The notes under the pieces were generated by a model, which had not been told where the DNA came from, did not search any database, and saw nothing but the letters and a program-made list of their open reading frames with translations. 5,562 nucleotides of DNA from a virus. Taxonomy: Duplodnaviria; Heunggongvirae; Uroviricota; Caudoviricetes. This document shows positions 1-5,562 of the stretch, in pieces. Positions within the stretch are counted from its first letter, which is position 1. Each line of letters begins with the position of its first letter. The stretch lies in IMG/VR virus record IMGVR_UViG_3300028981_000030; one strand, 5' to 3'. Both the position numbers and the translations under genes were made by a program.

Positions 1-101
1 GCTATCGCCCCGTAAGCCCAGTTCCCGGTAAAAAGACCAATCAGTAGCTGCGCAGCCACAGCACAAAGCGCATGAAGGAAAGGTGTTATATCCATTTTCA
101 T
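1..101 (-). CDS. possible 5' end of a hypothetical protein with hydrophobic N-terminus (partial, continues beyond window start)
   Basis: Hand translation of the minus strand from ATG at 101..99 (second ATG at 95..93) gives MKMDITPFLHALCAVAAQLLIGLFTGNWAYGAI with no stop before the window edge. A purine-rich AGGA lies just upstream of the second ATG, and the start sits directly after the putative terminator at 117..131. Only about 33 codons are visible, so a chance ORF is not excluded. It is too short to appear in the ORF track. Confidence 0.25.
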   Translation of the reverse strand, partial: MKMDITPFLHALCAVAAQLLIGLFTGNWAYGAI

Positions 102-105
102 CCTA

Positions 106-134
106 CCCAATAAAACGGGGCGCTCGGCCCCTTA
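106..134 (-). terminator. putative rho-independent terminator downstream of the 346-aa fibre-like gene
   Basis: Perfectly complementary arms ggggc (117..121) and gcccc (127..131) with a 5-nt loop. On the minus-strand transcript the stem is followed by GUUUUAUU, and it lies 6 nt after the TAA stop at 138..140. The stem is short (5 bp, all G-C), hence moderate confidence. Confidence 0.45.
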
Positions 135-137
135 ATA

Positions 138-1178
138 TTATTTAGACGCAAGCGCCGCATCAATTGCAGATAATCTTTGTCTTAATTCTGCGTTTTCTTC
201 TTCCAGTGCTGTTATTCTGTCGTCTGACTCTCTGGCTACCTGAACAAGCAAGCCAGTAACACCAGAATAATCTACTGTGTAATAACGTTCACCTTCTTCA
301 CCTTCCGATCCGCTCGCACCGTCCTGATATTTCATTGCGGAACCTACAACTTCTGGGATTGCTTCCAGAGCTTCCTGTGCAATGACACCAGCATAGGGCA
401 TACCGTTTTCTTTAAGCGTGTATGTATAGCCGTTCATTTTACGGATGCGGTCGGTTGCATTATCGATCACCTGAATGTTGTCTTTCAGATCCCGGTCGGA
501 ATGCTGGTTAAATGCGGTGGCATGACATGCACCATTAACGCTTAACATATAGGTGTTATCGGTATTTTTCTGCGCATAGAACATATAAGCGCCACCATCA
601 ACACCGACTTCATAAACAACAGGACGGCTGGAGTTGCCCCACAATTGAGCAGTAACACCAGCATAAGCGGTTCCCTGTGTGTTTAATGTCATGGTTGACC
701 CATGATTGGCATATTTGATCTGTAATGTGTCGGTGTAATCAAATTTAATAAGCGCGTTACTTCCACGCTTGCTGTATGACATAAGGCAGTTACCCATTTT
801 GAGGTATCCGCTGTCACCGGGAAAAATCATCGTACCGCCATAAAGGTTGGTAAAGTCCCAGCAAATGTTTGTCCCGTTATCGTTCAGGTTAAGGCGCGCC
901 ATTGCGTTACCTGGACTGTCTATCCATTTTTTGAGGTATAGTTCGCAATACGCATCCTCAACACCTGCCGTCCTGTGAGTTGAGCGGAGTTTTCTCCCAA
1001 ATATAGCTCCGCTAGTTGGCAATACCTGCTGATACCATGAAGCAGACCAGTCACCAACGATTTCATCTTTGCTGTCTACATATAATTTTGTTGCGTAGCT
1101 TCCTTGATCGTTTTTTAATTTGCTAACGTCGGATTTTAGCGTTTTGATGTCATCAGGAATTACTGTCGATGTAGCCAT
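138..1178 (-). CDS. tail fibre / receptor-binding-like protein with C-terminal intramolecular chaperone auto-processing domain (peptidase S74-like)
   Basis: 346-aa ORF with ATG at 1178..1176 and a GAGGGAGA Shine-Dalgarno about 4 nt upstream. The motif HSDRDLKDNI at residues 226-235 has Ser227 (codon 498..500) and Lys232 (codon 483..485) spaced exactly as the catalytic Ser/Lys dyad of the C-terminal intramolecular chaperone domains of endosialidases and phage T5 L-shaped fibre. The C-terminal helix DDRITALEEENAELRQRLSAIDAALASK is typical of that domain. The N-terminal ~225 residues are beta-rich and G/N/T/Y-rich, like fibre tips. Confidence 0.75.
   Translation of the reverse strand: MATSTVIPDDIKTLKSDVSKLKNDQGSYATKLYVDSKDEIVGDWSASWYQQVLPTSGAIFGRKLRSTHRTAGVEDAYCELYLKKWIDSPGNAMARLNLNDNGTNICWDFTNLYGGTMIFPGDSGYLKMGNCLMSYSKRGSNALIKFDYTDTLQIKYANHGSTMTLNTQGTAYAGVTAQLWGNSSRPVVYEVGVDGGAYMFYAQKNTDNTYMLSVNGACHATAFNQHSDRDLKDNIQVIDNATDRIRKMNGYTYTLKENGMPYAGVIAQEALEAIPEVVGSAMKYQDGASGSEGEEGERYYTVDYSGVTGLLVQVARESDDRITALEEENAELRQRLSAIDAALASK
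141..506 (-). other. intramolecular chaperone / self-cleavage domain (S74-like) within the 346-aa protein
   Basis: Residues ~225-346: the SDRDLK motif followed by a predicted coiled-coil C-terminal helix. Domain boundaries are approximate. Confidence 0.6.
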
Positions 1179-1181
1179 TTG

Positions 1182-1190
1182 TCTCCCTCA
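1182..1190 (-). promoter_or_regulatory. Shine-Dalgarno for the 346-aa gene, overlapping the stop of the 93-aa ORF
   Basis: The minus-strand sequence reads GGATGTGAGGGAGACAA-ATG. The TGA stop of the upstream ORF is embedded in the ribosome-binding site, and the intergenic gap is only 9 nt, suggesting coupled expression. Confidence 0.5.
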
Positions 1191-1469
1191 CATCCAGCCA
1201 CGAAGTTGATGTTCAACTACAACCGCGTATTCATCGAATATTGACGATTTTTTTGCATCATTAATGATGCGCACGTTTACAAAATATCCGTTTTCCTTAA
1301 TACATATCGGTTCGCCATCTTCAGTCAGTTCTCCGGTTTCTTTGTACACGTTACCTATCACGTCAATAAGAATATCATCCTGCATCGACTCGTCATCATA
1401 ATAGCCAGCACTCCCCATAAAGGCCGAAAATTCGGCCCTGTCGGCAAATTTGAGTGTTAAATCTTTCAT
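1188..1469 (-). CDS. small acidic hypothetical protein (93 aa), translationally coupled to stf; candidate fibre-associated chaperone or adaptor
   Basis: ORF from the track. Its ATG (1469..1467) overlaps the stf TAA stop (1471..1469) by one base (TAATG), and a GGGGGAG Shine-Dalgarno lies about 8 nt upstream inside the stf 3' end. The protein is rich in D/E. I recognise no similarity to lambda Tfa. Its position between two fibre genes is the only functional hint. Confidence 0.55.
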   Translation of the reverse strand: MKDLTLKFADRAEFSAFMGSAGYYDDESMQDDILIDVIGNVYKETGELTEDGEPICIKENGYFVNVRIINDAKKSSIFDEYAVVVEHQLRGWM

Positions 1470-3841
1470 TAGATTGACTCCCCCACCTGAGCATCAGTCA
1501 ATGCCTTGTGCCATATTCTGAAATTCCTGACATGACCAAATAAATGACGTAACCCGGCTGTAGTCTGGCCTCCAATACGGATAATTGCGGTGTTCTGAAT
1601 ACAGGACCATGTGGTTTTTGTTTCGCTGGATATACGCCCGTTACTTACTGAGCACGTAGACTGATCTGACTTTACACGCATCCCCATAACCATTTTTTCA
1701 AGCAATGCGTTTTCATTTACCCGTCTGTTAGCTCCTCCAATATCGCAATAAGGAAATCCGTCGTAATCTGCTGAAGAACCGAAGCCAAGAATAATAGCCG
1801 CTCCGGTTTGATGACCGCCGGTGTCAAAAACACGCGGCGCTGCATTTGGCGTTTTATACCAGTTCTTATGTACCTCACAAAGAACCGTAAAAGGAAGATT
1901 ATAAAGATTATTCTTAATGGGAACTGTAACTATATCGCTTGCGCGGGTCGCCGCCGTCGTTCCTGATATAATAAAAGATGATACACAAGGCCCATTTTCT
2001 ACTTGTGGGGTGGCCAGATAAATATAGTCACCAGATACGGTTACCCCGCCCTGCTTAGGAGAATACTGTATCTGAGAACCTATTTTTAACTCCCCATCAA
2101 TTGCCTGAATTGTTGCCTCTGCAAAAATCCATCCGGTAGCTTCGTCCTTTCTGACTCTCGCTGTAATCCTTGAGGCAGCGCCGCCTGTCATATTAATTTC
2201 AAGCGTTTGTGTATCAATATACGCATCACCAAGAAAAGTTGTTGCGCTACCGTCATATTTATCAAACCGGATACGCAACCTTACCTGCAGTTCTGTTTTA
2301 AAACGACATGAGGTTGTCACGTATTTATTATCGCCTGAGACATCAACTGACTTTGTTGCAGCAATTGATGCCATATTAATGGCTGAGGTTTGCCCAATCA
2401 GAGAATCGTTACAGACAAACTTTCCATAGGTAAAACCAAAACTATCCTTCCCGGTTTCGGGAACATCCATATTTGACGATCGCCCCCAACTGGCAGGGTT
2501 TTCCGAATTGAGCATGTAGTTTGTTCTTTGCCCCTCAATAAGCAGGCCATCACGTTCAAATCGTGGCTCGTCAATGGCAGCCTCTGTCAGCACACCAGAT
2601 TTGTTAATATAGGTTGCTTTCGATGCACGTTTAAACTTAACAATCTTGTCGCCAGGCATCGTTATTTCATCGTCACCAATAACAATTTTTTTATATGATG
2701 GCGAAAAGCCCGTAATCATATCCAGCGAATCGTTAAATGGTATCCACACATCAGGCAGCGGCTGTAAGACATATTTATACGGCTCCGCAGCCTGGCTTGC
2801 GTACTCTCTGGCTGCATCTTCGCTTGCTTTAGCTGCCGTCTGGCTTGCTGCCGATGCTTTCGCTGAGTTCGCAGCCGCTGTTTCGCTCACCTTTGCGTTG
2901 GTTTCACTGGTTTTTGCTGCTTTTTGACTGTTAGCTGATGCAGTGGCAGAAGCAGCCGCCGCGCTTGCAGAACTGGCTGCGGCACTCTCGCTTTGGGCCG
3001 CTGCATCCTGACTGCTTTTCGCCGCAGTTTCACTGGCTTTGGCATTCGTTTCGCTGGTCTTCGCTGCCGTCTGGCTGGACTTTGCGTTAGTTTCACTCGT
3101 CTTCGCAGCTTTCTGGCTGTTAGCCGCAGCAGTTGCTGATCCAGCTGCTGAAGTCGCAGAACCGGCTGCCGCGCTCTCGCTTTGGGCTGCTGCAACCTGG
3201 CTGTTTTTTGCCGCAGTTTCACTGGCTTTGGCATTCGTTTCGCTGGTTTTCGCTGCCGTCTGGCTGGACTTTGCGTTGGTTTCGCTCGTCTTTGCGGCTG
3301 TCTCGCTATTTTTCGCGTTGGTTTCTGATTTTTTGGCTGCTGTCGCGGAGTTTGCCGATGCAGTCTTTGAGGTCGCTGCCGCCTGTGCACTATTAGCTGC
3401 ATTCGTTTCTGAGGTTTTCGCCGCGTTCTTCGATGATGCCGCTGCAGTTTCGGATTTCTTTGCCGCCGCTGCGCTCTGAGAGGCGGCTTCAGCGTTGCGT
3501 GCCGCTTCTTCCACCATTTCCTCAAAACGACGCAATGCCTCCGGCATGACATCATCTTCCGTCATGGCACCGAGAAAATCATTCAGCGTACCTGGTCTGG
3601 AACCTTCATAGACGGTAATGGTCCCGGCATGTGAAGGCGGAAAACCTTCAACAAGCAGGATAACGCTGTACTGGCCATACTCAACATCCATGCTGTAACG
3701 CCCGGCTTCATCCGGATTTTCAGAGGCCACCGTGTTCACCAGTACCGTGGTGCTGTTACGCTTTGCCTTCAGTTGAATAGTGCAGTTCTGTATTGGTTTT
3801 CCCGCACCATCTTTCAGCACACCTGAAATCTGTACTGCCAT
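1469..3841 (-). CDS. stf: side tail fibre protein (Stf-like), mosaic: lambda-Stf-like N-terminus, Ala/Ser heptad shaft, C-terminal region ending in a LamG/concanavalin-like signature
   Basis: The N-terminus MAVQISGVLKDGAGKPIQNCTIQLKAKRNSTTV...YSMDVEYGQYSVIL...FPPSHAGTITVYE closely matches my recollection of the lambda Stf N-terminal virion-attachment region. The preferred start is ATG 3841..3839, with GGAG 5 nt upstream; the ORF track begins at GTG 3847. Residues ~113-354 form an Ala/Ser/Thr/Lys-rich 7-residue repeat. The C-terminus ...GLRHLFGHVRNFRIWHKALTDAQVGESI fits the characteristic end motif of LamG_3-type jelly-roll lectin domains (G-x-[IV]-x-x-[VF]-R-I-[WY]-x-x-A-L-[ST]-x-x-[EQ]-[IV]). 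Confidence 0.85.
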   Translation of the reverse strand: MAVQISGVLKDGAGKPIQNCTIQLKAKRNSTTVLVNTVASENPDEAGRYSMDVEYGQYSVILLVEGFPPSHAGTITVYEGSRPGTLNDFLGAMTEDDVMPEALRRFEEMVEEAARNAEAASQSAAAAKKSETAAASSKNAAKTSETNAANSAQAAATSKTASANSATAAKKSETNAKNSETAAKTSETNAKSSQTAAKTSETNAKASETAAKNSQVAAAQSESAAAGSATSAAGSATAAANSQKAAKTSETNAKSSQTAAKTSETNAKASETAAKSSQDAAAQSESAAASSASAAAASATASANSQKAAKTSETNAKVSETAAANSAKASAASQTAAKASEDAAREYASQAAEPYKYVLQPLPDVWIPFNDSLDMITGFSPSYKKIVIGDDEITMPGDKIVKFKRASKATYINKSGVLTEAAIDEPRFERDGLLIEGQRTNYMLNSENPASWGRSSNMDVPETGKDSFGFTYGKFVCNDSLIGQTSAINMASIAATKSVDVSGDNKYVTTSCRFKTELQVRLRIRFDKYDGSATTFLGDAYIDTQTLEINMTGGAASRITARVRKDEATGWIFAEATIQAIDGELKIGSQIQYSPKQGGVTVSGDYIYLATPQVENGPCVSSFIISGTTAATRASDIVTVPIKNNLYNLPFTVLCEVHKNWYKTPNAAPRVFDTGGHQTGAAIILGFGSSADYDGFPYCDIGGANRRVNENALLEKMVMGMRVKSDQSTCSVSNGRISSETKTTWSCIQNTAIIRIGGQTTAGLRHLFGHVRNFRIWHKALTDAQVGESI
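1472..2050 (-). other. putative LamG/concanavalin A-like lectin domain at the Stf distal end (boundaries approximate)
   Basis: The terminal motif GHVRNFRIWHKALTDAQV resembles the conserved C-terminal strand of LamG-like domains. The N-terminal boundary is a guess from typical domain size (~150-200 aa). Confidence 0.45.
2786..3511 (-). repeat. 21-nt (heptad) periodic Ala/Ser-rich coding repeat array in the stf shaft
   Basis: The DNA shows recurring gcttt/gcagc/ttcgct units. The protein reads as consecutive heptads (AAKTSET NAKSSQT AAKTSET NAKASET ...) with Ala at positions 1-2 and Ser at position 5. Lambda Stf has a similar low-complexity shaft. Confidence 0.8.
2921..3298 (-). repeat. direct tandem duplication, 2 x 189 bp (2 x 63 codons), inside the stf shaft
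   Basis: Protein residues 184-246 and 247-309 are near-identical 63-aa blocks (AAKTSETNAKSSQTAAKTSETNAKASETAAK[N/S]SQ[V/D]AAAQSESAAA...ANSQK). At DNA level, ctctcgctttgggc[c/t]gctgca...gcagtttcactggctttggcattcgtttcgctgg recurs at ~2986 and ~3175, an offset of 189 nt. A third partial copy follows toward lower coordinates. Confidence 0.85.
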
Positions 3842-3851
3842 ACTCACTCCA

Positions 3852-3880
3852 CAAATAAAAAAGGCGCCATTTCTGGCGCC
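3852..3880 (-). terminator. rho-independent terminator between J and stf (minus strand)
   Basis: Perfect 7-bp stem ggcgcca (3863..3869) / tggcgcc (3874..3880) with loop tttc. On the minus-strand transcript the stem is followed by UUUUUUAUUU (complement of the A-run at 3853..3862). It lies about 20 nt downstream of the J stop at 3902..3904. A terminator distal to J is my recollection for lambda. Confidence 0.7.
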
Positions 3881-3901
3881 CGTATTGGGGTTATAAATAT
3901 T

Positions 3902-5562
3902 TCAACGGATACTGATACCGGAAGCGGCTTTTTTGGTCACAATCACCGTACAGTCGGTGATATTGCCTGCCCCCTGATTGCCTTTCTGGAAAACCTTAAA
4001 CTCCAGAGTGACGCTACCACCACCACTAGGCATATCAATAACTGCACTGTAACTACCGGGAATGGCCCCTTTAGTTTCTCTGGATGCGATTAATACGCCG
4101 TTTTTGCGAACTTCAAAACCATAACCCGTGTATCGCGTGCCTCCTGGGTTATTTCCGCTCCCCGGATCGTCATACGCTATACCGTTAAAAATAATGGGCG
4201 GAATAATAATCTGGCGGTCAAAGTTATGATCATCGCTGATGGTGACTGTAACCGTACCGTTTGGTGTTTCCGTGTTACCCCACGTACCGACTTTTTTCGG
4301 GAAGGCTTTTGATACAGCTTTAACGAAATCCCCTCTGACCTGGGTCGCCTCCAGCATGCCCTTAATCGTACAGTTCTGGTTAATCGTGACATTGTTGAGC
4401 GTTCCTGAGTTCGCATTCACACTACCACTGATATCCGCATTTTTAGCGGTCAGCTTTCCGTCTGATGTCAGGGAAAATACCGGAGGACTGCCACCGCTGG
4501 TAATGGTGGGGGCTGTCAGGCGCTTCAGGAACACGTCGTTCATGAATATCTGGTTGCCCTGCGCCACAAACATCGGCGTTTCATTCCCGTTTGCCGGGTC
4601 AATAAACGCGATACGGTTAGCGGCAACCAGAAACTGGCTCAGCTTGCCTTCCTCCGTGTCCTCCATGCTGAGACCAATACCCGCGACATAATGTTTGCCG
4701 TCTTTGGTCTGCTCAATTTTGACGCCCCACATGGCATTCCATTTATCGTTAGCGTCCTTCCACTCTTTCGAAAACTCATCCAGTCTGCTGGCGTTATCCT
4801 CCGTCAGATCGACTTTTTCCAGCAGCTCCTTGCCGAGATGAGATTCGGTTATCTTGCCTTTGAAAAAATCCAGATAACCTTCCGCATCATCGCTCGCCCG
4901 ACCGACGGCCTCCACGAATGCCGATTTGCCAACGGTGTTCACACTGCGGATATAAAAGTAATAATCATGGCCCGGTTTGATATTGATACTGGCGGCTATC
5001 CAGTACAGCGCCGTACCAAGATAGCGGGCTGTGGTTTCAACCTGCCTGATATCGGTAATCCGCTTTTCCGAGAACCAGAACTCAAACTGTACCGTCGGGT
5101 CATAAACGGCAAGATGCGGCGTGGCGGTTATCTGAAAATAGCCCGGCGTCAGCTCAATCCGCGACGGCGCTGCCGGTGCGGCGATCCGGAACGATACCGA
5201 TGCAGGATCGCCCTGCTGTCCCCATGCATTTACCGCCCGGACTGTCAGCCTGTAATTTCCCAGCGCCAGCTGCCTGAAGCGGTATGTGGTTTCCGTCGTC
5301 CGGGCCGTGATGACCAGCCGCTCACTGCCGTCATCCGCTGTTACGGTCAGACGGAGCAGGAAGCTCACGCCCTTCACCACCTTCGGCGTGTCCCATCGCG
5401 CCAGCACCTGATATTCCCCGCTGTCTGCGGTGACTTCGGCGGTCAGGTGCTGCACCGCTGGCGGCGTGACACCATTCACCGTGCCGCTCTGGTCGCCGTC
5501 AAAGTGCGCCCCGTTATCCACGATGGCTTCTTTTTCCGGTACATGCTGCACGGCGGTGATGG
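3902..5562 (-). CDS. J: host specificity / tail tip protein J-like, C-terminal portion (5' end lies beyond the window)
   Basis: The frame is open to the window edge (...[11 protein letters not shown]...). The segments [22 protein letters not shown] and TAPTITSGG and the overall layout match my recollection of lambda-family J proteins, including fibronectin-III-like repeats. The last ~150 residues are Gly-rich and would correspond to the receptor-binding region. The TGA stop is at 3904..3902. Confidence 0.85.

What the first reader, a model, noticed from the sequence alone, without database searches (positions are those of the whole stretch)
138..1469. Two-gene module in the usual tfa position: small acidic ORF plus a 346-aa fibre-like protein with a self-cleaving chaperone domain
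Lambda-family fibre loci usually end with stf followed by tfa. Here stf is followed instead by a coupled 93-aa acidic ORF and a 346-aa protein whose C-terminal third carries the Ser-x4-Lys signature (SDRDLK, Ser227/Lys232) of intramolecular-chaperone self-cleaving domains. The 346-aa protein has no N-terminal region resembling a known virion-attachment domain, so how or whether its ~225-residue mature part joins the particle is open. It may dock on Stf, possibly through the 93-aa protein, to form a branched fibre, or it may have a non-structural role. I have not seen this arrangement characterised, but it may simply be annotated as hypothetical in many prophages.
Basis: partly seen in the sequence, partly recalled or inferred. 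Interest (0 to 1): 0.62.

Follow-up and report, generated by a model that had tools for sequence, protein, structure and literature searches.

The report
Two-part side tail fibre cassette
The two genes are the back end of a widespread three-gene phage tail-fibre cassette: a long fibre with a sugar-binding-like tip, a small partner protein of unknown role, and a short second fibre that folds with a self-cleaving chaperone domain; only the small protein is really uncharacterised.

Summary
On the minus strand, stf (1469-3847), a 93-aa acidic ORF (1188-1469) and a 346-aa ORF (138-1178) form one terminator-bracketed operon. The 346-aa protein carries a Peptidase_S74 intramolecular-chaperone domain starting at Ser227, with Lys232.

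The arrangement is not rare. The 93-aa gene is in 990 of 5426 complete E. coli genomes and 183 phage records. All three genes have homologs in the lateral-fibre cassette of the T5-like phage IrisVonRoten (Gp22/23/24), for which a published AlphaFold-Multimer model attaches the distal fibre (Gp24) to the proximal one (Gp22).

The 346-aa protein does have an attachment element. It is a conserved 15-residue N-terminal anchor (MxTxTxIPxDIxxLK) seen only in genes that start about 20 nt or less after a 93-aa homolog.

The 93-aa protein tracks the Stf tip, not the short fibre. In 25 of 25 testable diverse loci it directly follows a fibre ending in the same GTA-head-spike-fibre/LamG-like domain. Phage 21 and relatives keep Stf plus the small protein with no short fibre.

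Best reading: a jointed or branched fibre with two receptor-binding parts. The small protein is an assembly factor or cap/joint of the lectin-like tip; which of these is unresolved. This is a new member of a known kind, of moderate interest.

The parts
3862..3881 (-). Terminator-like hairpin between J and stf; marks the upstream end of the fibre operon
   Evidence: A terminator is annotated at the same place in phage 21.
1469..3847 (-). stf, the 792-aa proximal side tail fibre
   Evidence: PF08400 phage_tail_N on residues 3-133, E=1.8e-67. phrog_1419 over the full length.
3449..3841 (-). Stf N-terminal virion-attachment domain (PF08400, residues 3-133); the only part of the cassette that changes with phage family
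   Evidence: There is no alignment of this part to T5-like IrisVonRoten Gp22, while the rest aligns.
2492..2761 (-). Stf 'junction' segment (residues 363-452, PLPDVWIPFNDSLDM...); the slowest-evolving stretch of the cassette and a candidate docking region
   Evidence: Mean 79% and minimum 68% identity across 8 lineages, against 47% for the lectin-like part.
1472..2770 (-). Stf C-terminal lectin-like tip (residues 360-792): GTA head-spike-fibre-like domain plus a LamG-like end (...FRIWHKALTDAQVGESI)
   Evidence: NCBIfam NF048003 GTA_spike_fiber E=9.7e-14, above cutoff. PDB 6tb9 Rcc01080 E=4e-7. Weak Laminin_G_3 match.
1188..1469 (-). 93-aa acidic alpha/beta protein (phrog_1361, function unknown), translationally coupled to stf; obligate companion of the lectin-like tip
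1179..1187 (-). 9-nt spacer carrying the GGGAG ribosome-binding site for the 346-aa gene
138..1178 (-). 346-aa distal short fibre with a C-terminal intramolecular chaperone
   Evidence: (phrog_4563 tail fibre, full length).
1134..1178 (-). N-terminal anchor (residues 1-15, MATSTVIPDDIKTLK), followed by a heptad coiled coil (predicted helix 9-28)
   Evidence: M1, T5, I7, D10, I11, T13 and K15 are invariant and P8 is near-invariant. Shared with IrisVonRoten Gp24, EC122, JenP1, KarlJaspers and AKFV33. Helix 9-28 in the AF2 model.
669..1085 (-). Variable beta-rich middle (residues 32-170), the likely receptor-binding part
   Evidence: Mean pairwise identity 0.37, with indels.
501..668 (-). T4 gp34-type knob repeat (residues about 171-226)
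   Evidence: Profile against PDB: 4uxe, 5nxf and 5nxh at E about 6e-6 to 9e-6. phmmer hints.
483..500 (-). S227-D-R-D-L-K232, the predicted Ser/Lys dyad and self-cleavage site
   Evidence: Aligns to SSDRRIK of the S16 gp37 chaperone domain.
141..500 (-). Intramolecular chaperone domain (residues 227-346) ending in a long helix (304-345)
   Evidence: PF13884. PDB 6f45 E=2e-8 and human MYRF 7dc3 E=1.4e-3. Helix in the AF2 model.
117..131 (-). Intrinsic terminator-like hairpin (GGGGCCGAGCGCCCC followed by GTTTTATT) closing the operon

Best explanation
The finding is the distal two-thirds of a three-gene, horizontally mobile side/lateral tail-fibre cassette: stf, the 93-aa gene and the 346-aa gene.

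Stf is the proximal fibre. Its N-terminus fixes it to the lambdoid tail. Its C-terminal ~430 residues form a lectin-like domain related to the GTA head-spike fibre, with a LamG-like end. That domain is itself a probable glycan-binding part and needs no Tfa.

The 346-aa protein is a short distal fibre. Its C-terminal S74 domain registers and folds the trimer, then cuts itself off at Ser227 (inferred from the family). This leaves a ~25-kDa mature subunit made of an N-terminal anchor, a coiled coil, a variable beta domain and a gp34-like knob. The anchor (MxTxTxIPxDIxxLK) docks on a cassette-internal partner at the distal end of Stf. The result is a jointed or branched fibre with two receptor-binding parts (inferred).

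The 93-aa protein is a dedicated partner of the lectin-like Stf tip and is made in step with Stf through stop/start overlap. It most likely acts as an assembly factor or a retained cap/joint at the Stf distal end. It is not specific to the short fibre. Which of those two roles it plays is not resolved.
For: S74 membership of the 346-aa protein:
- Pfam match above cutoff starting exactly at Ser227.
- Invariant S/D/L/K in 52 homologs.
- PDB profile hits to the S16 gp37 chaperone domain and human MYRF.

Fibre nature of the mature part:
- phrog_4563 'tail fiber' over the full length, and matches to the C-termini of 1000-1500-aa fibres.
- gp34 knob hits.
- Conserved ends with a variable middle.

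Cassette homology:
- The window Stf from residue 132 on aligns to IrisVonRoten Gp22, and residues 354-792 align closely.
- The 93-aa protein is 37% identical to Gp23.
- The anchor and chaperone domain are shared with Gp24.
- A published AlphaFold-Multimer model attaches Gp24 to Gp22 (PMC11990801).

The same cassette sits on different tails:
- Lambdoid phages, Nonagvirus (JenP1, ESCO3), Drexlerviridae (KarlJaspers) and T5-like phages (EC122, IrisVonRoten, AKFV33) carry it, with only the proximal N-terminus differing. The distal fibre's partner must therefore be inside the cassette.
- In all of about 37 phage records that could be cross-checked, the anchor-bearing gene starts about 20 nt or less after the small gene.

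The 93-aa protein goes with the Stf tip:
- In 25 of 25 diverse loci with upstream sequence, the ORF ending at the small gene's start is StfC-like, jackhmmer E<=1e-62.
- Phage 21, ev207, ev017, PhiR57_1, PhiR63_2 and an E. ruysiae prophage have Stf plus the small gene and no distal fibre.
- StfC is found in 218 phage records and the small protein in 183.

Other support:
- The proximal fibre homolog ORF137 of AKFV33 was found in virions by mass spectrometry (PMC3326045).
- The related RcGTA head-spike fibre binds capsular polysaccharide (PMC10218006).
Against: - No multimer model or experiment was available here for this cassette.
- The AF2 monomer of the 346-aa protein is poor (pLDDT 64, chaperone domain below 50), and its fold search was not significant.
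- Self-cleavage and presence of either protein in virions are untested.
- Across 8 lineages the small protein diverges with the distal anchor (rho 0.58) at least as much as with the lectin domain (0.48). EC122 against IrisVonRoten share small protein 76% and anchor 100% but lectin part only 37%. This leans toward an adaptor role or merely reflects gene adjacency.
- RcGTA Rcc01080 folds and binds without such a partner, which weakens an obligate-chaperone reading.
Confidence: 0.7

Rival explanations
1. The 93-aa protein is the structural adaptor. It stays on the Stf tip and forms the socket into which the N-terminal anchor of the 346-aa fibre inserts, rather like the T4 gp35 knee. In phages without a distal fibre it would be an empty cap.
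For: - Every anchor-bearing gene that could be checked lies directly after a small-protein gene.
- Small protein and anchor co-vary (rho 0.58), and both stay similar when the lectin part is swapped, as in EC122 against IrisVonRoten.
- P2-like phages also place a short second fibre, with its own Caudo_TAP chaperone, right after the small-protein homolog.
- The invariant C-terminal R-x-W tail has low pLDDT in isolation, as expected for a docking peptide.
- IrisVonRoten Gp23 is annotated 'tail fiber protein'.
Against: - Many functional phages and distant lineages keep the small protein with no adjacent second fibre: phage 21 and relatives, and Mu-like, GC-rich and rV5-like loci.
- The anchor (mean 73% identity) evolves at the pace of the Stf junction segment (79%), not of the small protein (47%).
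- The co-variation is expected from gene adjacency alone.
- The published multimer model docks Gp24 on Gp22 without mention of Gp23.
Confidence: 0.3
2. The 93-aa protein is a non-virion assembly chaperone, a functional analog of Tfa. It is needed only to fold or register the Stf distal end and plays no part in holding the short fibre.
For: - It sits in the tfa position, has stop/start overlap with stf, and is small and acidic.
- It is strictly linked to the StfC-type domain across unrelated phage groups, with or without a second fibre.
- No Tfa is present in the window.
Against: - It is not a Caudo_TAP member, and its fold resembles no known fibre chaperone.
- The homologous RcGTA head-spike fibre is functional when made alone in E. 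coli, and the neighbouring rcc01081 is a capsule gene.
- The lectin part and the small protein are evolutionarily decoupled: window against IrisVonRoten shows lectin 60% and last 60 residues 72%, but small protein 37%.
Confidence: 0.35
3. The 346-aa protein is not a fibre. It is a trans-acting chaperone for Stf, as suggested by database names such as 'putative lateral tail fiber chaperone' or 'endosialidase chaperone'.
For: - These are the GenBank annotations of the homologs in KarlJaspers, VogelGryff, PeterMerian and ESCO3.
- Some alleles have a very small mature part of 105-115 residues.
Against: - In the characterised members, S74 domains act in cis on the chain they are part of (established knowledge of K1F endosialidase and T5 pb1; also stated in PMC4728585).
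- The protein has its own anchor, coiled coil, gp34-like knob and a diversifying middle.
- Homologs reach 574-576 aa with full receptor-binding domains.
- Phage 21-type Stf exists without it.
Confidence: 0.05
4. The 346-aa fibre attaches directly to the tail tip (J, K or I region) as an independent second fibre set, not through Stf or the small protein.
For: - No docking contact has been shown directly.
- Monomer modelling gives no information on partners.
Against: - The same anchor occurs on phages with unrelated tail tips (lambdoid, T1-like, 9g-like, T5-like). The only shared candidates there are the Stf distal half and the small protein.
- It never occurs without them in the records checked.
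Confidence: 0.07

Closest known systems
Lateral tail fibre cassette of T5-like phage IrisVonRoten (Bas32): Gp22 proximal fibre with 'galectin-like' C-terminal domain, Gp23, Gp24 distal fibre with intramolecular chaperone (Humolli et al. 2025, PMC11990801)
   Same: All three genes are homologous and in the same order and spacing. The Ala-rich shaft, junction and lectin-like tip are shared. The small protein is 37% identical. The N-terminal anchor and S74 domain are shared. Stop/start overlap and a 9-nt spacer are the same.
   Different: The virion-attachment N-terminus is lambda Stf-type (PF08400) here, not T5 Ltf-type with an LtfC collar. The distal fibre here is 346 aa with one small variable domain, not a 574-aa T-shaped fibre with two receptor-binding domains. 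The host element here is a temperate lambdoid phage.
Branched L-shaped tail fibres LtfA/LtfB of T5-like phages DT57C and DT571/2 (Golomidova et al. 2016, PMC4728585; Ayala et al. 2023, PMC10713586)
   Same: This is a two-protein lateral fibre in which the second protein has no virion-binding domain and rides on the first. The second fibre carries a C-terminal S74 chaperone and adds a second host specificity.
   Different: In DT57C, LtfA itself also ends in an S74 domain, and LtfB docks through a phiEco32 gp15-like N-terminus onto a mid-fibre region. No small intervening gene appears in that paper's gene table (LtfB gp107, LtfA gp108). Here the proximal fibre ends in a lectin-like domain followed by a dedicated small protein.
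S74 intramolecular chaperone domains of K1F endosialidase, T5 pb1 and S16 gp37 (PDB 6f45), and human MYRF
   Same: Pfam PF13884, the Ser-x4-Lys dyad, a C-terminal position after a beta-rich fibre tip, and a terminal helix.
   Different: The carrier is unusually short (226 mature residues; 105-115 in sister alleles) and lacks its own particle-binding domain.
Lambda Stf-Tfa (and P2 H-G, Mu S-U) fibre plus separate chaperone
   Same: The Stf N-terminal domain is the same family, and a small coupled gene lies immediately downstream of stf.
   Different: The Stf tip here is lectin-like, not gp37-like. The small protein is half the size, is not Caudo_TAP and has a different predicted fold.
RcGTA head spike fibre Rcc01080 (PDB 6tb9; Alim et al. 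2023, PMC10218006)
   Same: It is homologous to Stf residues about 405-650. It is a lectin-like two-domain capsule-binding protein anchored only by a short N-terminal peptide.
   Different: It sits on the capsid rather than the tail, has no long shaft, and has no adjacent small-protein homolog; the next gene is a capsule biosynthesis gene.

Membership tests
Peptidase S74 / intramolecular chaperone domain (346-aa protein) | Significant match to the family profile PF13884 | tested here: met
   E=4.8e-14, 52.8 bits against a cutoff of 22, residues 227-278 on model positions 1-57.
Peptidase S74 / intramolecular chaperone domain (346-aa protein) | Conserved Ser-x4-Lys catalytic dyad at the domain start | tested here: met
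   S227 and K232 are read in the DNA. They are invariant in 52 homologs and aligned to SSDRRIK of S16 gp37, PDB 6f45.
Peptidase S74 / intramolecular chaperone domain (346-aa protein) | Sequence relationship to solved chaperone domains | tested here: met
   Profile against PDB: 6f45 E=2e-8 and MYRF 7dc3 E=1.4e-3.
Peptidase S74 / intramolecular chaperone domain (346-aa protein) | Characteristic trimeric fold of the domain | tested here: inconclusive
   Only a monomer could be modelled. pLDDT is below 50 over residues 226-280 and the terminal helix 304-345 is confident. The fold search was not significant.
Peptidase S74 / intramolecular chaperone domain (346-aa protein) | Autoproteolytic release of the domain after trimer folding | not testable with these tools
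   Needs protein expression with S227A or K232A controls.
Lambda Tfa / Caudo_TAP tail fibre assembly proteins (93-aa protein) | Match to PF02413, or fold similarity to solved Tfa-type chaperones | tested here: not met
phrog_1361 small-protein family (93-aa protein) | Full-length profile match | tested here: met
   E=8.1e-45 over residues 1-93 of a 92-position model; annotated 'unknown function'.
phrog_1361 small-protein family (93-aa protein) | Position immediately after, and overlapping the stop of, a fibre gene ending in a StfC-type lectin-like domain (rule derived here) | tested here: met
   True in the window, in 77 of the 80 E. coli viral contigs (one has a different upstream C-terminus and two no assessable upstream ORF), and in 25 of 25 diverse loci with upstream sequence.
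Lambda-type side tail fibre (Stf) | N-terminal PF08400 domain, located after J | tested here: met
   E=1.8e-67 on residues 3-133. The J C-terminal domains lie upstream.
GTA head-spike-fibre-like / LamG-like lectin domain (Stf C-terminus) | Match to NF048003 and to Rcc01080 | tested here: met
   NF048003 E=9.7e-14, 52.3 bits against a cutoff of 36. 6tb9 E=4e-7. Laminin_G_3 is only sub-threshold.
GTA head-spike-fibre-like / LamG-like lectin domain (Stf C-terminus) | Glycan binding | not testable with these tools
   Shown only for RcGTA Rcc01080 (PMC10218006).
Two-part lateral fibre of the IrisVonRoten Gp22-Gp23-Gp24 type | Homologs of all three proteins in the same order | tested here: met
Two-part lateral fibre of the IrisVonRoten Gp22-Gp23-Gp24 type | Physical attachment of the distal fibre to the proximal fibre | not testable with these tools
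   Only a published AlphaFold-Multimer model of the homologs exists.
DT57C-type branched fibre (LtfA/LtfB) | LtfB-type N-terminus (phiEco32 gp15-like) docking on an LtfA mid-region, with both proteins carrying S74 domains | not tested
   The sequences were not fetched. The description in PMC4728585 differs: Stf here has no S74 domain.

The most novel reading that the evidence does not exclude
The 93-aa protein (phrog_1361) may represent an unrecognised class of tail-fibre accessory protein. It would be the universal, obligate partner of fibres that end in a GTA-head-spike-fibre/LamG-like lectin domain, found in lambdoid, T1-like, Dhillonvirus, 9g-like, T5-like, rV5-like, P2-like, Mu-like and other phages. 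It would act either as a new kind of fibre-tip chaperone unrelated to Tfa, gp38 or gp57A, or as a cap/joint that lets a second, exchangeable short fibre be plugged onto the first.
Probability: 0.5. Interest if true: 0.55.

Novelty: new member of a known kind. Interest (0 to 1): 0.4.

Why it matters
Side and lateral tail fibres set the first step of host recognition, and they are the parts swapped when phages or phage-derived delivery particles are retargeted. This cassette is one of the commonest fibre modules in E. coli, present in roughly one complete genome in five and in over 180 sequenced phages.

It appears to carry two receptor-binding parts on one fibre, with the distal one exchangeable behind a 15-residue anchor. 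Two things would make the module usable for engineering: knowing that the small protein belongs with the lectin-like tip, and finding out whether it is a chaperone or a joint. They would also help explain how such cassettes move between unrelated phage families by changing only the proximal N-terminus.

Tried and rejected
- AF2 monomer of the 346-aa protein with a 52-sequence alignment. Confidence was low (pLDDT 64). Foldseek against PDB was not significant, although the top hits were T4 gp34.
- PDB sequence and profile searches for the 93-aa protein found nothing meaningful.
- An all-library HMMER search found 49 representative clusters, all short stand-alone proteins without names. A profile search of the 5.8-billion-protein set returned only 'hypothetical' or 'prophage protein' names.
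- Read-through fusion idea. The 93-aa and 346-aa ORFs are in frame across TGA plus 9 nt. The frame relation is not kept in KarlJaspers or the P2-like loci, so this was rejected. The 194-aa 'fusions' in metagenomes are the 92-aa gene joined to the downstream membrane protein gene.
- Tfa membership of the 93-aa protein was rejected.
- Trans-chaperone reading of the 346-aa protein was rejected as unlikely.
- Mirror-tree style comparison of segment identities in 8 lineages. It was suggestive but cannot separate interaction from gene adjacency.
- Search for virion proteomics of a cassette-bearing phage. Only AKFV33 was found, where four gel bands were analysed. The proximal fibre ORF137 was detected, and small proteins were not examined.
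- The genome-contig scan gave only 4 loci.
Full report
**What is in the window.** All long ORFs lie on the minus strand: the C-terminal 549 residues of J (3902-5551), a 792-aa Stf (1469-3847), a 93-aa ORF (1188-1469) and a 346-aa ORF (138-1178). The stf stop and the 93-aa start share one base (TAATG). The 93-aa TGA is followed by GGGAGACAA and then the 346-aa ATG. On the coding strand, terminator-like hairpins occur only after J (3881-3862) and right after the 346-aa gene (131-117), so the three genes look like one transcription unit. The 93-aa protein is acidic, with pI 4.3 and 19 acidic against 9 basic residues. Both genes show purifying selection against homologs, with median dN/dS of 0.55 and 0.29.

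**The 346-aa protein.**
- *Chaperone domain.* Pfam Peptidase_S74 matches residues 227-278, starting at model position 1, at E=4.8e-14 and well above the curated cutoff. S227, D228, L231 and K232 are invariant in 52 homologs. A profile of the family finds the chaperone domain of S16 gp37 (6f45, E=2e-8) and the human MYRF domain (7dc3) in the PDB.
- *Knob and fibre matches.* Residues about 174-223 match the knob repeat of T4 gp34 at E about 6e-6. PHROGs places the whole protein in phrog_4563 'tail fiber' and aligns its residues 92-342 to the C-terminal ends of 1200-1567-aa fibres.
- *Conservation pattern.* Among full-length relatives the ends are conserved and the middle is variable and indel-rich.
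- *Anchor.* The N-terminus is not featureless. M1, T5, I7, D10, I11, T13 and K15 are invariant and P8 is nearly so. They are followed by a variable number of heptads predicted as a helix.
- *Limits of modelling.* The AF2 monomer was poor, as expected for an intertwined trimer, and gave no significant fold match.

**The Stf tip.** Stf has the lambda-type N-terminal domain (PF08400) and an Ala-rich repetitive shaft. Its last ~430 residues are not the gp37-like tip that needs Tfa. They match NCBIfam GTA_spike_fiber above cutoff and the RcGTA head spike fibre Rcc01080 in the PDB (E=4e-7), with a weak LamG match at the very end. Rcc01080 is a lectin-like capsule-binding protein that works when expressed alone in E. 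coli (PMC10218006). No Caudo_TAP/Tfa is encoded in the window.

**How common it is.**
- The same DNA is 98% identical in the lambdoid phages Tritos, 2G7b, PhiR63_1 and HannyBb. At 93% identity it occurs in the virulent Nonagvirus ESCO3, where the same three genes follow each other.
- The 93-aa gene is present in 990 of 5426 complete E. coli genomes, up to five copies per genome, and in 183 phage records. These records span lambdoid phages (including phage 21), Drexlerviridae, Dhillonvirus, Queuovirinae, T5-like and rV5-like phages.
- The 346-aa family includes clusters of 2132 and 906 member sequences.

**What travels with what.**
- *Close relatives.* In 80 E. coli viral contigs the 93-aa gene almost always follows a Stf ending ...WHK(A/E)LTDAQ.GE... 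Wherever downstream sequence exists, a gene beginning MATSTVIP.DI starts 9 nt later. That gene is either the 346-aa allele or a 234-aa allele whose S74 domain starts at residue 116.
- *Small gene without a distal fibre.* Phage 21, ev207, ev017, PhiR57_1, PhiR63_2 and a phage 21-like prophage of E. ruysiae have Stf, a 92-aa homolog about 50% identical, and then directly the membrane-protein gene that also follows the cassette in the window.
- *Distant relatives.* In 24 distant viral contigs (small protein about 30% identical; P2-like, Mu-like, GC-rich and other phages) and six fetched phage and prophage loci, the ORF ending at the small gene's start is StfC-like in all 25 cases where upstream sequence exists, at jackhmmer E<=1e-62.
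- *What follows varies.* Downstream one finds baseplate genes, lysis genes, or in P2-like phages a 229-272-aa fibre with its own Caudo_TAP chaperone.
- *Counts.* StfC is found in 218 phage records against 183 for the small protein.
- *The anchor depends on the cassette.* The anchor motif was found only in genes that start about 20 nt or less after a small-protein gene, in all of about 37 records that could be cross-checked.

The dependable pair is therefore the lectin-tipped fibre plus the small protein. The anchor-bearing short fibre is an optional third member that depends on the pair.

**Link to published work.**
- The T5-like BASEL phage IrisVonRoten has bas32_0022 (796 aa), bas32_0023 (92 aa, annotated 'tail fiber protein') and bas32_0024 (574 aa) with the same overlaps and spacer.
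- Window Stf aligns to Gp22 from residue 132 on, at 53% identity overall; residues 354-792 align closely. Only the N-terminal attachment part differs. The 93-aa protein is 37% identical to Gp23. The 346-aa protein shares the anchor (10 of 17 residues) and the chaperone domain with Gp24.
- Humolli et al. 2025 modelled Gp24 as a distal fibre attached to the proximal fibre Gp22. They described the Gp22 C-terminal 'galectin-like' domain as a possible additional receptor-binding domain. The passages read do not discuss the small protein (PMC11990801).
- Maffei et al. 2021 noted that lateral fibres of small siphoviruses may consist of one, two or more proteins (PMC8594841).
- In KarlJaspers the short S74 protein is annotated 'putative lateral tail fiber chaperone'.
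- AKFV33 has the same cassette (orf137, orf136, orf135), and ORF137 was detected in virions. Only four gel bands were analysed.
- DT57C LtfA/LtfB is a related concept with different docking: LtfA ends in its own S74 domain and LtfB has a phiEco32 gp15-like N-terminus (PMC4728585).

**Mechanism.**
- *Distal fibre on Stf.* The same anchor-bearing fibres occur on phages with unrelated tail tips. The only shared candidates for a partner are the distal half of the proximal fibre and the small protein, so the short fibre must be held by a cassette-internal contact (inference). This makes a jointed or branched fibre with a lectin-like domain on Stf and a second, exchangeable binding domain on the short fibre.
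- *Assembly of the short fibre.* It is expected to trimerise from its C-terminal S74 domain, which then cleaves at Ser227. This follows from established knowledge of K1F endosialidase and T5 pb1 and was not tested here.
- *Candidate interface.* The two slowest-evolving segments of the cassette are the Stf junction segment (residues 363-452, mean 79% identity in 8 lineages) and the first 15 residues of the distal fibre (73%). The lectin part and the small protein both average 47%. This makes junction plus anchor a plausible interface.

**The small protein.**
- *Structure.* AF2 gives a confident small alpha/beta model (pLDDT 86.5) with a less ordered C-terminal tail that carries the invariant R90 and W92. 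Nothing informative matches it in the PDB or BFVD. It is not a Tfa.
- *Arguments for a role centred on the Stf tip.* It persists without any second fibre, and it is strictly coupled to StfC-type domains.
- *Arguments for a joint role.* It tends to co-vary with the anchor and not with the lectin part. EC122 against IrisVonRoten share small protein 76% and anchor 100% but lectin 37%. Window against IrisVonRoten share lectin 60% but small protein 37%. P2-like phages also place a short second fibre right after it. Gene adjacency could explain the co-variation.
- *Weights.* I give roughly equal weight to 'assembly factor not in the virion' and 'retained cap/joint', and regard this as the real open question.

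**Verdict.** The branched-fibre idea fits the evidence. The claims of a missing attachment element and of an uncharacterised arrangement do not hold, and the module is really three genes with the small protein belonging to Stf. This is a new lambdoid member of a known kind of two-part lateral fibre. The uncharacterised small-protein family is the one part worth experimental follow-up.

Noticed in passing
window 1-95 (minus strand): Start of a ~95-97-aa two-TMD membrane protein gene (MDITPFLHALCAVAAQ...). In lambdoid phages it follows the fibre cassette whether or not the short fibre is present. In phage 21 it is annotated 'putative membrane protein' and is followed by the sitABCD cargo genes. 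Its function is unknown.
   Followed up: partly
window about 2783-3520 (Stf residues about 110-355): The Ala-rich shaft is built of near-identical AAKTSETNAK-type repeats. The composition (GC 0.55, AT skew about -0.6) creates long spurious ORFs in other frames and on the other strand, for example 2887-3555 (222 aa) and 3039-3479 (146 aa).
   Followed up: no
L005 6292-7333; protein clusters P0015, P0024, P0025, P0027: In many E. coli prophages the 346-aa gene is split into 90-aa and 254-aa ORFs. The 254-aa product forms clusters of 232 and 400 member sequences, so the distal fibre gene is often inactivated in resident prophages.
   Followed up: partly
L031 5292-5996; L120 4782-5447: A 'mini' distal-fibre allele of 221-234 aa has the same anchor and a divergent S74 domain (motif SSIRYK or SSERYK) starting at residue 106-116. 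Its mature part would be only about 105-115 residues, mostly coiled coil.
   Followed up: partly
window 3848-3901 compared with L004/L005 2962-3561: The window has no lom gene between J and stf, while otherwise similar prophages carry a 199-aa Ail/Lom gene there.
   Followed up: no
L097-L099 (P2-like viral contigs): The gene order is an H-like fibre with a tail-collar N-terminus and StfC-like C-terminus, then the small-protein homolog, then a 229-272-aa fibre (gp37_trimer, Gp53-like_C), then a Caudo_TAP chaperone. The same three-part logic is built with a different chaperone system.
   Followed up: partly
phage records MG0656xx ('Campylobacter phage' C11-C15, A116, A12a), OR847733 and OR848352 ('Listeria phage'): These records, labelled as Campylobacter or Listeria phages, carry sequences up to 98% identical at the protein level to E. 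coli rV5-like phage genes, or related (51-74%) to T5-like ones. They are probably mislabelled or contaminated entries.
   Followed up: no
L092 (JAGZNZ010000051.1, 'Collinsella sp.' MAG): A 2.8-kb contig binned into a Collinsella MAG encodes the E. coli-type Stf C-terminus, the small protein (92% identical) and the 234-aa fibre. This is most likely a binning contaminant.
   Followed up: no
proteins P0289, P0290, P0294 (194 aa): Metagenomic gene calls fuse the phage 21-type 92-aa protein in frame with the downstream membrane protein. The two ORFs are in frame and separated by 12 nt in phage 21.
   Followed up: partly
H32, H51 (E. coli B-LamR, C41(DE3)): E. coli B-lineage laboratory strains carry a copy of the 93-aa gene in a resident prophage. 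This is relevant when fibre proteins of this type are expressed in BL21-type hosts.
   Followed up: no
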